From the IMG/VR virus record IMGVR_UViG_2721755660_000004: a stretch of DNA of 45,337 bases. One strand, given 5' to 3'. Positions 15,001 to 18,000 of this stretch are shown in pieces. A program made the position numbers. This DNA comes from a virus. Taxonomy: Duplodnaviria; Heunggongvirae; Uroviricota; Caudoviricetes. Positions within the stretch are counted from its first letter, which is position 1. Each line of letters starts with the position of its first letter.

Positions 15001-18000
15001 CCCGGACCGGAAAGGCGTCCATCCACAGAATCATCTGGCCGGTTACAGCGGTGTGCTTCAGGCCGATGCTTACGGTGGTTACCGGGTGTTATACGAATCC
15101 GGCAGAATAACGGAAGCCGCGTGTATGGCTCATGCCCGGAGAAAAATCCACGATGTGCATGCAAGAGTGCCCACCGACATCACCACGGAAGCCCTGCAGC
15201 GTATCGGTGAACTGTATGCCATAGAGGCAGAAGTCCGGGGATGTACAGCAGAACAGCGTCTGGCGGCAAGAAAAGCCAGAGCTGCGCCACTGATGCAGTC
15301 ACTGTATGACTGGATACAGACTCAGATGAAAACACTGTCGCGTCACTCGGATACGGCAAAAGCGTTCGCATACCTGCTGAAACAGTGGGATGGCCTGAAC
15401 GTGTACTGCAGTAATGGCCAGGTGGAAATCGACAACAACATCGCAGAGAACGCCTTACGGGGAGTGGCCGTAGGCCGGAAAAACTGGCTCTTCGCGGGTT
15501 CCGACAGCGGTGGCGAACATGCGGCGGTGTTGTACTCGCTGATCGGCACATGCCGTCTGAACAATGTGGAACCAGAAAAATGGCTGCGTTACGTCATTGA
15601 GCATATCCAGGACTGGCCGGCAAACCGGGTACGCGATCTGTTGCCCTGGAAAGTTGATCTGACCTCTCAGTAAATATCAATACGGTTCTGGCGAGCCGCT
15701 TACGAACAACTACGTAAACAGGCACAGGAAATGTTGCGACAGGCGGAACAACTGGAAAAAAACAGGTGTAACAAAAGATGCCATTCGTAAGGATATGGTG
15801 CCAGCGCTCAGGGAACTGATGCAGGCGAAACACCGCGCACAAAAAGCAGTGGATGAGCTGGTGGATTGTGTGGCAGAGCTGGAAACCAAAGTTGGAAAGT
15901 TTGAAAAACTGGTGCAGGAGGTGCTGCGCTGATGCGCCATGAGTTTATTTTACCTTATCCGCCGACGGTAAATACTTACTGGCGACGTCGTGGCAACACA
16001 TATTTTGTATCAAAAGTCGATGAGCGTTATCGCCGTGATGTGGCGCTAATTGTTCGCCAGCAGCGGTTGAAATTAAACCTGTCCGGAAGGCTGGCGATAA
16101 AGATTATTGCAGAGCCACCGGATAAGCGCCGTCGTGACCTGGACAATATCCTGAAAGCACCACTGGATGCACTGACACATGCGGGATTGCTTATCGACGA
16201 CGAGCAGTTTGATGAAATCAATATTGTGCGCGGTCAGCTCGTTCCTGGTGGGCGGCTGGGCGTGAAGATTTACAAAATTGAAAGTGAGTGAGCGTAAATA
16301 TGATATACCCGGAAATTACAGGCAAAAGCGGTGAGCATTTACGCCTGAAAACTCTGGAAAGTGTCTGGCTCCAGGGGAAACTGCGTATGTGGGGGCGTTG
16401 GTCGTATATAGGTGGTGGCAAAACAGGAAATATGTTCAATCAGTTGCTGGCATCCAAAAAACTGACAAAAACCGCGATCAATGAAGCCATGCGCAAAATC
16501 AGGGAATCAGGGATTGATAAACCTGAACTGGAAGCATTCTTGCGTGAGATGATCGAAGGAAAGCAAAAAAGCTGGTTAACTCACTGCACTGATGCAGAGG
16601 CACTAAAAATTGATAGTGTTATAGGTGAAGTTCTGGCGGATCATCCAGGACTACTAAATGTCCTGAGTCAGCGTTATGTGGGGCGAGGGATGAGTAAGAG
16701 AAGGATGGCCGAGTTATTAAACGAACAGTACCCAGAGTGGGCGTTGATTACATGCCGACGTCGTGTTGATCAGTGGTTGCGTGTTGCTGAGTTCATTTTG
16801 TACTCACCTATGAGAGAAGCGTTCGATTATACTTAAAAAATCATTGCAAAATGAGCCACAAACTGCTTCAATTCCGGTACGCTCCGCATAGCTGTATCGC
16901 GAGGCGAATCAAGCGCATGAACTTTGATACAACCCGCCATTGAGCGGGTTTTTTATGTCCGAAAAACGGCAGAGAACATAAAACGTGCTGGTGGTTGCGA
17001 ATACTGGTCTTTCGGCTTGTATTTTTGTAAATCGATATATACTTATCTTGTGACCAGTAATGTCAGGGCAATTGATATGAATGAAGCCTGTTCTGTTGTT
17101 TTTGTTCATTCCCCGTTTGTTGTGCTCTTTGAAGGAAAAGAGCTCTCTCTTGAAAGTGGTAGTGCACTTCTTGTCAGGGGGGGAGCTGGATCGTTATTGC
17201 CCTTTTCGGAATGTTTTCGGCGAATAAGTCTCAGTGAATCGACAATTAGCCGTTACCTGTTGTGTGGAGACGAAAAACAGGATGTAGTTTTAGTCCGGCA
17301 AATACCACGATATCTTTGCGTGAGTTTTCCCAAGGCAGAATTGATGGGCATCCTGATTGATTATCTTTGTGAGGAAAAGATTCATACGGACAATTTAGCG
17401 GAAATGCTTTCCTTTTCGTGTCTGGCGTTTTTCTCATCAGAGAAAATGTTTTCGTCGTTTCTGACCGCGTGTATTAGCAATATTAGTGACAGGCTTAGTG
17501 CATTGTTTCGCACGGACATTGCAGCAAACTGGACTCTGAGAGATGTGTCTTCGCGGTTATGTATCAGTGAAAGTTTGTTAAAAAAAAGACTGAAAGAAGA
17601 AGGCACCTGTTTCAGTGAGTTGTTGCTTACAGAGAGAATGAGAATGGCAGCAATGCTGTTGAATCAATCTCGTTGCGCCATCAACAGAATCGCTGCCCAG
17701 TGCGGCTATAATTTTACATCTTATTTTATCAGCGTATTCAGGAGTTATTTTGGTGTTACACCGGCAGGTTACAGGATGGCTGCATTCAATGAGATGAGTT
17801 TAAGTGTTACTCAAGAATAATTGAATTTTGCACTCATTGAAAACAGGCTCGCTGCGGCGGGCCTTTTTCATATCCGCGCCACGCCCGGCGCATATCAAAA
17901 ACCACAGAGCCTTTCAGGGGTGAGCTTACGGGATGGTCAGTGTGACTTTCTCTGTGGGCTGGTCACCCCAGGGCGCAGGCTCACCCACTAAAAGGAAAAG

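What the first reader, a model, noticed from the sequence alone, without database searches (positions are those of the whole stretch)
17077..17820. AppY/EnvY-like AraC-family regulator carried as phage cargo between Q and the lysis genes
The C-terminal dual-HTH region and the N-terminal 'CSVVF' segment closely parallel AppY of the DLP12 prophage. The gene sits directly after the tR'-like terminator, so it would be expressed with late genes or from its own promoter, and is strongly AT-rich. Such regulators can rewire host acid-resistance and anaerobic regulons, which makes this a likely lysogenic-conversion gene.
Basis: partly seen in the sequence, partly recalled or inferred. Interest (0 to 1): 0.45.

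Follow-up and report, generated by a model that had tools for sequence, protein, structure and literature searches.

The report
Uncharacterised prophage AraC regulator, PatE/Psr/YdeO-like
This is an intact but unstudied AraC-type gene switch carried as cargo by an E. coli lambda-like prophage, in the spot where Shiga toxin genes sit in other phages, and it most likely turns on the host's acid-resistance genes as its studied relatives PatE, PsrB, AppY, YdeO and GadW do.

Summary
Window 17077..17820 (+) is an intact 247-aa AraC/XylS regulator with both helix-turn-helix motifs. It lies between a Q-like antiterminator (16300..16836) and the holin (19894..20100), about 120 nt after an intrinsic terminator, at 42% GC against 50.6% for the window.

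The protein belongs to the clade that shares an N-terminal 'CSV' domain (GadW, YdeO, AppY, PatE, Psr). AppY is its most distant full-length relative (30% identity). EnvY and GadX match only in the DNA-binding domain. PatE (39%), the EDL933 Psr-type protein (37%), YdeO (37%) and GadW (36%) are nearer. None is an orthologue, and the NCBIfam YdeO model scores 148 bits against a cut-off of 348.

It forms its own lineage. It is full length in 64 of 5,426 complete E. coli genomes, mostly from livestock, and always sits in the Q-to-lysis slot. In EDL933 prophage CP-933O the same slot, with homologous flanks, holds the Psr-type gene (junctions 17019/17020 and 17843/17844).

dN/dS is 0.26. The DNA-contact helix, including the lysine essential in AppY, is conserved. 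Activation of gadE/hdeA-type acid-resistance promoters is inferred, not shown. Verdict: a new member of a known kind, of modest interest.

The parts
16300..16836 (+). Q-like late antiterminator gene (DUF1133). This is the PGAP start; a GTG at 16288 is also open.
   Evidence: Pfam DUF1133 333 bits and Phage_antitermQ 29 bits (cut-off 26). PHROG 753 'anti-termination protein Q-like' 1.4e-75. 80.6% identical to the DUF1133 protein that precedes the Psr-type gene in EDL933 CP-933O.
16845..16873 (+). Candidate late promoter (pR'-like): TTGCAA, 17 nt, TTCAAT. Inferred only.
   Evidence: My own reading of the alignment. Both hexamers are kept and the spacer varies in the window, A17 and EDL933 CP-933O. 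The consensus scan did not call it because there is no A at position 2 of the -10.
16931..16956 (+). Intrinsic terminator (tR'-like): a 7-bp G+C stem, a 6-nt loop and a T6 run.
   Evidence: Terminator scan. RNA fold -11.2 kcal/mol, z -2.49. Hairpin and T-run are present in all five lambdoid prophages aligned, including ones with other Q types and no AraC gene.
16957..17019 (+). Conserved post-terminator backbone block containing a Chi site (GCTGGTGG, 16987-16994). It is not part of the AraC cassette.
   Evidence: 81% identical to Sakai Sp6 and EDL933 CP-933N, which lack the AraC gene. Conserved in 5 of 5 prophages. Chi positions.
17020..17843 (+). Exchangeable cargo cassette (moron): 57-nt cassette-specific leader, the ORF, and a 23-nt tail. 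40.8% GC.
   Evidence: Homology to EDL933 CP-933O runs 15929-17019 (82%) and resumes at 17844-18074 (83%). Between these flanks CP-933O carries a small ORF, a Psr-type AraC gene and two tRNAs. GC.
17038..17043 (+). TATACT, the only good -10-like hexamer in the cassette-specific leader. A possible own promoter; weak inference.
   Evidence: Read from the sequence. There is no acceptable -35 at 16-18 nt, and the scan did not call it.
17077..17820 (+). AraC/XylS-family regulator gene, 247 aa. N-terminal Rns/ToxT-like regulatory domain (about residues 1-135) and two-HTH DNA-binding domain (about 136-235).
   Evidence: Family and identity. Model: AlphaFold pLDDT 87.4; Foldseek finds Rns, CsvR and ToxT over the full length at E 2e-12 and the GadX DNA-binding domain at 0.9 A. 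dN/dS 0.26. K169 corresponds to AppY K170.
17845..17869 (+). Strong intrinsic terminator closing the cassette: 8-bp stem (6 G-C pairs) plus T-run. It belongs to the shared right flank.
   Evidence: Terminator scan. RNA fold -20 kcal/mol, z -5.9, 0 of 200 shuffles fold as well. Homologous to CP-933O downstream of its tRNA-Arg.
18006..18592 (+). Neighbouring cargo: TerB/TciA-like gene (18006..18431) and DUF3927/TciB-like gene (18428..18592).
   Evidence: PHROG 632 and 1470. Pfam TerB and DUF3927. PGAP annotation.
18854..19189 (-). Neighbouring cargo: iraM homologue (anti-adaptor that stabilises RpoS) in a 33% GC island.
   Evidence: NCBIfam IraM 160 bits, cut-off 121. PGAP annotation. GC.
19894..20100 (+). 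Class II holin; start of the lysis cassette.
   Evidence: Pfam Phage_holin_2_1 113.8 bits. PGAP annotation.

Best explanation
Shown:
- The gene encodes an intact, selectively maintained AraC/XylS-family transcription factor with Rns/ToxT-type two-domain architecture.
- It is a separate lineage inside the GadW/YdeO/AppY/PatE/Psr clade.
- It travels as an 824-bp exchangeable cargo cassette in the Q-to-lysis slot of lambdoid prophages of E. coli.

Inferred:
- Once made, it binds AT-rich sites at sigma-70 or sigma-S promoters through its two recognition helices and activates transcription.
- Its most likely targets are the promoters on which every studied relative converges: gadE, hdeAB and gadY of the glutamate-dependent acid-resistance island.
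- That would raise acid tolerance. In LEE-positive hosts it would indirectly lower type III secretion through GadE.
- In a lysogen it must be transcribed from a weak or activator-dependent promoter in the 120 nt between the terminator and the ATG, or by read-through.
- After induction, Q-modified RNA polymerase starting at pR' would read through both terminators and co-express it with the late genes, as happens for stx genes in the same slot.
For: Gene and family:
- Intact ORF with both HTH motifs.
- Confident model, pLDDT 87.4. Full-length fold matches to Rns, CsvR and ToxT, and 0.9 A to the GadX DNA-binding domain.
- Full-length homology, including the N-terminal domain, to PatE 39%, the Psr-type protein 37%, YdeO 37%, GadW 36% and AppY 30%.
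- It scores 148.3 bits against the NCBIfam YdeO model, the same as the characterised PatE at 148.1.
- The first recognition helix S-E-S-L-L-K-K-R-L-K and the second, T-S-Y-F-I, are nearly invariant across the clade. K169 aligns with AppY K170, whose K170E change abolishes DNA binding (PMC10057817).

Function of relatives:
- AppY directly activates gadE and gadY (PMC10057817).
- PatE and PsrB activate gadE and hdeA, and PsrA/PsrB repress type III secretion via GadE and YhiF (review PMC10877973).
- GadW, GadX and YdeO all modulate gadE (PMC10057817).
- A 39%-identical non-phage relative lies beside an hdeA-family gene.

Selection and spread:
- dN/dS is 0.26 overall and 0.15 in the DNA-binding domain, against the 90.7%-identical porcine-strain allele.
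- The exact protein is seen on at least 999 public contigs.

Cassette and slot:
- The gene lies between Q and the holin in four different prophage backbones.
- Junctions against CP-933O are at 17019/17020 and 17843/17844.
- A Psr-type gene occupies the same slot upstream of stx2 in the inducible phage phiSTEC1575-Stx2k.
- A 42%-identical relative lies directly after a lambda-type Q.
Against: - No experiment bears on this protein, and no paper mentions its accession.
- Identity to any characterised relative is only 30-39%. The N-terminal (signal or dimerisation) domain is 20-31% identical, so targets and signals may differ.
- No sigma-70-like promoter was found on the + strand between 16200 and 20200, so expression in the lysogen is unproven.
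- Frameshifted and truncated alleles exist (strains C7 and C3; clusters P0006-P0011), so some lineages lose it.
- The gene taken as PsrB (WP_000301797.1) was identified by position in the OI-57 region, by family, and by a median of two copies per genome. It was not identified by the Z2104 locus tag.
Confidence: 0.55

Rival explanations
1. It is a functional AraC-type activator whose regulon is not the GAD acid-resistance network. It might control neighbouring prophage cargo (terB/tciB, iraM) or a different host regulon in response to its own signal.
For: - The N-terminal domain is only 20-31% identical to any studied relative. The lineage branches separately from the PatE, Psr, YdeO and GadW/AppY groups.
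- AraC regulators often act on adjacent genes.
- In this window, and in the Stx2k phage, an iraM homologue lies in the same slot.
Against: - In the commonest context (strains A17 and C7), and in the porcine-strain context (W13-16), the gene is followed by the holin genes or by a tRNA gene and then the holin genes. There is no terB and no iraM, so there is no conserved neighbour to regulate.
- The DNA-contact helices are those of the GAD regulators.
Confidence: 0.22
2. It is a silent passenger: an AT-rich, H-NS-silenced, terminator-insulated gene that is never expressed at useful levels in the lysogen and has no present role.
For: - No promoter was detected.
- The gene is bracketed by terminators.
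- It is 42% GC.
- Frameshifted and truncated alleles occur.
- It is present in only 1.2% of complete genomes.
Against: - dN/dS of 0.26 between alleles with dS 0.24 indicates purifying selection on the protein.
- It is intact in about 60 complete genomes and on many public contigs.
- Its relatives PatE, PsrA/PsrB and AppY are similarly AT-rich prophage genes yet have measurable phenotypes.
Confidence: 0.13
3. One reading: it is an AppY/EnvY equivalent that rewires the anaerobic and phosphate-starvation hya/app regulon as AppY does.
For: - Same clade as AppY, with an identical CSVVF pentapeptide.
- The AppY DNA-binding lysine is conserved.
Against: - AppY is the most distant full-length relative: 30% overall and 20% in the N-terminal domain.
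- EnvY is related only in the DNA-binding domain.
- The gene sits in a different place in the prophage from appY.
- CSV is a clade-wide motif, not an AppY signature.
Confidence: 0.08

Closest known systems
PatE (Z0321 / ECs0287), AraC-like regulator of prophage CP-933H / Sp1 of E. coli O157:H7
   Same: - Same length (247 aa).
- Nearest characterised relative by BLASTP bit score (157), at 39% over 234 residues including the N-terminal domain.
- Identical score against the NCBIfam YdeO model: 148 bits each.
- Also prophage cargo and AT-rich.
- PatE activates gadE, gadBC and hdeAB (PMC10877973).
   Different: - Only 39% identical, so not an orthologue.
- patE lies at the right end of its prophage, after the tail-fibre and invertase genes and next to an IS3 remnant (the same in phage mEp332). 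It is not in the Q-to-lysis slot.
PsrA/PsrB (prophage-encoded secretion regulators of EHEC O157:H7), represented here by EDL933 WP_000301797.1 in the OI-57 / CP-933O region
   Same: - Same slot in the same kind of prophage: rusA, DUF1133 Q-like gene (81% identical), terminator, AraC-like gene, then terB and DUF3927, with homologous flanks on both sides.
- 37% identical over the full length.
- PsrB binds the hdeA and gadE promoters and raises acid resistance. PsrA and PsrB lower type III secretion via GadE and YhiF (PMC10877973).
   Different: - 37% identity; 237 aa against 247 aa.
- The Psr cassette also carries a small ORF and tRNA genes.
- Psr-type genes occur in 726 of 5,426 complete genomes, usually in two copies, against 64 genomes for this gene.
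- The identification of WP_000301797.1 as PsrB is by location and family, not by locus tag.
YdeO and GadW (chromosomal AraC-type regulators of gadE in E. coli K-12)
   Same: - Full-length homology: 37% (YdeO) and 36% (GadW).
- N-terminal M-x-x-x-CSV start.
- Near-identical recognition helices.
- YdeO is the best NCBIfam model hit.
   Different: - Below the equivalog cut-off: 148 bits against 348.
- They are chromosomal, non-phage genes embedded in the EvgAS and GAD circuits.
AppY (DLP12 prophage, E. coli K-12)
   Same: - Prophage-borne member of the same clade, with the CSVVF pentapeptide.
- DNA-binding lysine K170 is conserved as K169.
- AppY directly activates gadE and gadY and raises acid resistance (PMC10057817).
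   Different: - Most distant full-length relative: 30% overall and 20% in the N-terminal domain.
- appY lies at the far end of DLP12 next to ompT, not after Q.
Rns / CsvR / ToxT (structurally solved virulence AraC regulators)
   Same: - Best full-length fold matches: Foldseek E 2e-12 for Rns and CsvR, about 1e-8 for ToxT.
- Same beta-rich N-terminal domain, helical linker and seven-helix DNA-binding domain.
- Sequence E 7e-18 from residue 88 onward.
   Different: - 17-22% identity.
- TM-score is only about 0.42 over the whole chain because the domain orientation differs.
- The fatty-acid pocket of Rns and ToxT was not examined here.

Membership tests
AraC/XylS family of transcription regulators | C-terminal domain of about 100 residues with two helix-turn-helix motifs joined by a long helix | tested here: met
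   Pfam HTH_18 50.9 bits (cut-off 33.6) and HTH_AraC 50 bits in two stretches. Seven helices between residues 136 and 245 in the model. 0.9-1.1 A to GadX 3mkl, with MarA, SoxS and AraC DNA-binding domains also matched.
GadW/YdeO/AppY/PatE/Psr clade ('CSV' N-terminal domain) | Homology over the whole length, including the N-terminal domain of about 135 residues that begins M-x-x-x-C-S-V | tested here: met
   BLASTP alignments span residues 1-230 or more with PatE, the Psr-type protein, YdeO, GadW and AppY. GadX and EnvY align only from about residue 107. The motif is aligned.
GadW/YdeO/AppY/PatE/Psr clade | Conserved DNA-contact helix S-E-S-L-(L/I)-K-K, including the lysine essential for AppY binding (K170) | tested here: met
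   Query residues 164-173 read SESLLKKRLK. K169 aligns with AppY K170. The K170E phenotype is from PMC10057817.
GadW/YdeO/AppY/PatE/Psr clade | Activates gadE, hdeA or gadY promoters and raises acid resistance | not testable with these tools
   Needs reporter, ChIP or survival assays. This is known for the relatives only.
AppY (orthologue) | High identity to K-12 AppY and the DLP12 right-end location next to ompT | tested here: not met
   30% identity over 233 residues and 20% in the N-terminal domain. appY lies after the tail-fibre genes in DLP12, whereas this gene follows Q.
EnvY (orthologue or close relative) | Homology beyond the DNA-binding domain | tested here: not met
   BLASTP aligns only residues 107-232 (40%). 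N-terminal identity in the multiple alignment is 15%.
YdeO (NCBIfam equivalog NF007407) | Score at or above the curated cut-off of 348 bits | tested here: not met
   148.3 bits over residues 2-230.
PatE / PsrA / PsrB (orthologue of one of them) | High sequence identity; for comparison PsrA and PsrB are 90% identical to each other | tested here: not met
   39% to PatE and 37% to the Psr-type protein. It forms a separate branch in the NJ tree, which has no bootstrap support.
Prophage moron (cargo cassette) | Discrete insertion between conserved backbone genes, present or absent or exchanged among related phages, with deviating base composition and a terminator | tested here: met
   Junctions 17019/17020 and 17843/17844 against CP-933O. 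The backbone without any AraC gene is seen in Sp6 and CP-933N. 40.8% GC against 50.6%. Terminator at 17845-17869 with z -5.9.
Prophage moron (cargo cassette) | Own promoter allowing expression from the repressed prophage | tested here: inconclusive
   The consensus scan found no + strand promoter. There is only a TATACT hexamer at 17038-17043 without a proper -35.
Rns/ToxT structural class of AraC regulators | Same two-domain fold over the full length | tested here: met
   Foldseek E 2e-12 for Rns and CsvR and about 1e-8 for ToxT, with 243-260 aligned columns. TM-score is only about 0.42.
Rns/ToxT structural class of AraC regulators | Fatty-acid-binding pocket that controls DNA binding | not tested
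   Pocket residues were not compared.

The most novel reading that the evidence does not exclude
The Q-to-lysis slot of this prophage may carry a two-part stress module. A YdeO/PatE-like activator would switch on gadE-dependent acid resistance, and a phage-borne IraM about 1 kb away would stabilise RpoS. Together they would mimic both outputs of the host EvgAS-YdeO/SafA-PhoPQ-IraM acid circuit. The activator's Rns/ToxT-like N-terminal domain might sense a gut signal such as fatty acids. The same AraC-like / iraM(-) / holin order flanks stx2 in an inducible Stx2k phage, so the pair could also link toxin-phage carriage to stress tolerance.
Probability: 0.1. Interest if true: 0.55.

Novelty: new member of a known kind. 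Interest (0 to 1): 0.3.

Why it matters
Prophage-borne AraC regulators (AppY, PatE, PsrA/PsrB) are known to plug into the E. coli acid-resistance and virulence networks. They affect stomach passage and ruminant colonisation by Shiga-toxin-producing strains.

This gene adds an unstudied lineage, at most 42% identical to anything outside its own group. It is found mainly in cattle, pig and food isolates, and it sits in the same exchangeable slot that holds psr-type genes and stx in other phages.

The slot therefore behaves as a swap site for regulators of one clade. If the protein does activate gadE/hdeA, it would be one more route by which livestock E. coli acquire acid tolerance. It would not change the general picture.

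Tried and rejected
- **Primary papers not held.** The PatE, PsrB and PsrA/PsrB papers (PMC3416394, PMC4288888, PMC7099609) could not be read. Their results are cited through the review PMC10877973 and through PMC10057817.
- **psrA not found in OI-50.** I looked in Sakai Sp6 and in EDL933 CP-933N, which covers the whole prophage. No AraC gene is annotated there, and tblastn with the query protein finds nothing. The review's OI-50 location for psrA could not be reproduced in these assemblies. A Psr-type gene was found in the OI-57 region instead.
- **Promoter scan.** The consensus scan for 16200-20200 found nothing on the + strand.
- **RNA and tRNA scans.** Rfam and tRNA scans found no RNA gene inside or overlapping the ORF.
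- **Accession search.** A full-text search for the RefSeq accession returned no papers.
- **Longer ORF rejected.** The 298-aa ORF from TTG 16924 would start inside the terminator, and no homologue aligns to the extension.
- **Minus-strand ORFs rejected.** The ORFs at 17246..17437 and 17382..17606 are by-products of the + strand gene.
- **Conserved AraC-iraM operon rejected.** iraM is absent from the commonest context of the gene.
- **AppY acting through IraM rejected.** The AppY paper reports that AppY does not raise iraM expression.
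Full report
**What is at the coordinates**

Window 17077..17820 (+) is a complete ORF of 247 codons starting at ATG, with AGGG eight bases upstream. The window is 100% identical to a lambdoid prophage of E. coli strains OkiPb01715 (bovine faeces) and GB089 (ground beef). That prophage is integrated beside a DUF72 gene downstream of yecN. RefSeq annotates the same ORF there as WP_001405091.1, 'helix-turn-helix domain-containing protein'. A mechanical ORF starting at TTG 16924 is longer, but every homologue starts M-x-x-x-C-S-V, which fits the ATG at 17077.

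Pfam finds HTH_18 (residues 158-233) and HTH_AraC in two stretches, both above their cut-offs. An AlphaFold model built on 41 homologues is confident (pLDDT 87.4). It shows a beta-rich N-terminal domain, a helical linker and seven C-terminal helices. The C-terminal part superposes on the crystal structure of the GadX DNA-binding domain at 0.9-1.1 A with 42-44% identity. The whole chain finds Rns, CsvR and ToxT as best full-length matches, at Foldseek E 2e-12 to 1e-8 with TM-scores near 0.42 because the domain orientation differs. The gene is therefore not a fragment, and the second helix-turn-helix is present.

**Surroundings**

- Upstream lie rusA (15932..16291) and a 178-aa protein (16300..16836). 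That protein is DUF1133 (333 bits), passes Pfam's Phage_antitermQ threshold (29 bits against 26) and matches PHROG 753, 'anti-termination protein Q-like'.
- Ninety-five bases after its stop codon lies a hairpin with a T6 run at 16931-16956.
- Between the stop codon and the hairpin, TTGCAA-17 nt-TTCAAT is conserved as hexamers with a variable spacer in three prophages that have this Q type. I read this as the late promoter, with the hairpin as its tR'-type terminator. This is inference.
- The AraC-type ORF starts 120 nt after the hairpin and is followed by a much stronger terminator at 17845-17869 (-20 kcal/mol, z -5.9).
- Then come terB/tciA-like and DUF3927/tciB-like genes, an STnc100-type sRNA ending in a third terminator, an iraM homologue on the minus strand, a truncated DUF1737 (nanS-p-type) ORF, and the holin, lysozyme and lysis protein genes.
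- So the gene does sit between Q and the lysis genes, directly after a terminator. Its GC content is 42.1% against 50.6% for the window, in the lowest 5.7% of windows of that size. That is AT-rich, but less so than the iraM island at 33%.

**Which AraC regulator it is**

BLASTP and a multiple alignment against proteins translated from K-12, Sakai and EDL933 give the figures below.

| Relative | Identity / aligned residues | N-terminal domain identity | Extent of match |
|---|---|---|---|
| PatE | 39% / 234 | 31% | full length |
| EDL933 Psr-type protein | 37% / 236 | 30% | full length |
| YdeO | 37% / 230 | 31% | full length |
| GadW | 36% / 242 | 27% | full length |
| AppY | 30% / 233 | 20% | full length |
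| GadX | 40% / about 130 | 15% | DNA-binding domain only |
| EnvY | 40% / about 130 | 15% | DNA-binding domain only |

The best NCBIfam model is YdeO at 148.3 bits, far below its 348-bit cut-off. The experimentally studied PatE scores 148.1 against the same model.

In the large protein collection the only close relatives are 76-87% identical variants of the same gene. Everything else is at most 42% identical. A neighbour-joining tree puts the query group on its own long branch beside the PatE and Psr groups. GadW+AppY and the YdeO group branch next, and GadX/EnvY/AdiY lie outside. The tree has no bootstrap support, so only the separateness of the branch is firm.

PHROG 1450, a family of unknown function, matches over the full length (1e-56), so the clade is already a recognised phage protein family.

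**Distribution and mobility**

The gene is full length in 64 of 5,426 complete E. coli genomes. Forty-one carry alleles at least 95% identical and 23 carry an allele about 90.7% identical, the latter in porcine ETEC and O139 strains. Hosts are mainly cattle, pigs, food and wildlife. The exact protein occurs on at least 999 public contigs.

No isolated phage genome in the phage collection carries anything closer than about 40%. In every context examined the gene lies between a Q-type antiterminator and the holin:

| Strain(s) | Gene order in the slot |
|---|---|
| 08-00022 and the window | DUF1133, gene, terB, then (past the tciB-like gene, iraM and the DUF1737 remnant) holin |
| A17 and C7 | DUF1133, gene, holin |
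| W13-16 | another Q family, two minus-strand genes, gene, tRNA-Gly, holin |

Against W13-16 the similarity begins exactly at the upstream terminator (16931) and ends just after the downstream one (17869).

Against EDL933 CP-933O the flanks are homologous: 15929-17019 at 82% and 17844-18074 at 83%. The interval between them is replaced by a small ORF, a 237-aa AraC gene of the Psr type and two tRNA genes. Sakai Sp6 and EDL933 CP-933N keep the post-terminator block 16944-17019 but have no AraC gene there.

The unit 17020-17843 therefore behaves as an exchangeable moron in a slot where different members of one regulator clade replace each other. The same slot holds a Psr-type gene, tRNAs, stx2AB and iraM in the inducible phage phiSTEC1575-Stx2k. 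A 42%-identical relative lies directly after a lambda-type Q. PatE and AppY use a different slot at the right end of their prophages.

**Is it maintained?**

Between the window allele and the porcine-strain allele, dS is 0.24 and dN is 0.064. That gives dN/dS of 0.26 overall, 0.15 in the DNA-binding domain and 0.36 in the N-terminal domain. This points to purifying selection on the protein. Decay does occur in some strains: the gene is frameshifted in C7 and C3, and several truncated clusters exist.

**How it most likely works**

Shown:
- It is a two-domain AraC regulator.
- Its first recognition helix (SESLLKKRLK, residues 164-173) and second recognition helix (TSYFI) are almost invariant across GadW, YdeO, AppY, PatE, the Psr-type protein, GadX and EnvY.
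- K169 is the counterpart of AppY K170, whose K170E change abolishes binding to the hyaA, gadE and gadY promoters (PMC10057817).

Known for the relatives:
- AppY directly activates gadE and gadY and raises acid resistance (PMC10057817).
- PatE and PsrB act on hdeA (-132 to -45) and gadE.
- PsrA and PsrB lower type III secretion through GadE and YhiF (PMC10877973).
- GadW, GadX and YdeO all modulate gadE.
- A 39%-identical chromosomal relative lies next to an hdeA-family gene.

Inferred:
- This protein also activates promoters of the acid fitness island.
- It acts as a lysogenic-conversion factor for acid tolerance.

I give this about 0.55. The main alternatives are a different regulon (0.22), a silent passenger (0.13) and a true AppY-like hya/app regulator (0.08).

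Expression is unresolved. The consensus scan found no + strand promoter. The cassette-specific 57-nt leader has only a TATACT hexamer (17038-17043) without a good -35. After induction, Q-modified polymerase should read through both terminators, as for stx.

**Comparison with what is known, and novelty**

The kind of element is well known: a prophage-borne AraC regulator of the GadW/YdeO clade, carried as a moron. This particular lineage has no name and no published study that I could find. It fails the orthologue tests for AppY, EnvY, YdeO, PatE and Psr. It is a new member of a known kind.

The one mildly new point is that the Q-to-lysis slot acts as a swap site for different regulators of this clade with conserved flanks. 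In this prophage and in an Stx2k phage, an iraM homologue shares the slot. That pairing is not conserved in the commonest context of the gene, so I treat a functional pairing as a low-probability idea.

**Caveats**

- WP_000301797.1 is taken to be PsrB for three reasons. It lies in the EDL933 OI-57 region. It is associated with a PerC/Pch gene and an nleG effector gene. The family occurs at a median of two copies per genome, with a 90-95% identity band that fits the reported 90% identity between PsrA and PsrB. The old locus tag could not be checked.
- I could not find a psr gene in CP-933N or Sp6, although reviews place psrA in OI-50.
- The primary PatE and Psr papers were not available.

Noticed in passing
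window 18854..19189 (-), island 18810-19435: There is a prophage-borne iraM homologue (anti-adaptor that protects RpoS from RssB/ClpXP). It scores 160 bits against NCBIfam IraM (cut-off 121) and sits in a 33% GC island just upstream of the lysis genes. The same order, AraC-like gene then iraM(-) then holin, occurs in the inducible phage phiSTEC1575-Stx2k with stx2AB in between (L017). It is absent from the commonest context of the AraC gene.
   Followed up: partly
window 18634..18809 (+): Rfam STnc100 sRNA matches at 93.7 bits (gathering score 47). It lies immediately after the DUF3927/tciB-like gene and ends in the intrinsic terminator at 18787-18804.
   Followed up: no
window 8672..8748 and 8773..8860 (+): Rfam matches IsrK (62.8 bits) and C4 antisense RNA (80.1 bits) side by side in the early region, just upstream of a Rha-family ORF. 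This resembles the Gifsy-1 IsrK/anti-Q module described in PMC4825925.
   Followed up: no
window 13085..15673 (+), remnant 15731..15932: An IS66-family element (tnpA, tnpB, tnpC) lies between the replicative helicase gene and rusA. The DUF968 gene that precedes rusA in a related prophage region in strain 08-00022 (L001) is reduced to a frameshifted remnant. The nin region is therefore disrupted and the prophage may be defective.
   Followed up: partly
window-wide; one site at 16987-16994: Chi sites (GCTGGTGG) number 14 on the + strand and 3 on the - strand, where under one per strand is expected by chance. The site at 16987 lies in a block conserved just after the tR'-like terminator in five lambdoid prophages, including ones with other Q types. 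Chi-rich lambdoid phages are described in PMC12315714.
   Followed up: partly
window 19451..19765 (+): This is a truncated DUF1737 ORF, the N-terminal remnant of a nanS-p-type sialate esterase gene that is intact in the same position in Sakai Sp6 and in EDL933 CP-933N and CP-933O.
   Followed up: no
L006 (Sakai Sp6), L014 and L015 (EDL933 CP-933N): Reviews place psrA (Z1789) in OI-50 / CP-933N. Neither the annotation nor tblastn with the query protein finds any AraC-type gene in this prophage in the current Sakai and EDL933 assemblies. A Psr-type gene is found in the OI-57 region (L016:35274-35987).
   Followed up: partly
L011:6001-6729 and L011:7834-8094: A 39%-identical, non-phage relative of the regulator lies about 1 kb from an HdeA-family gene on a 16-kb contig. 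This is an independent link between the clade and acid-stress genes.
   Followed up: no
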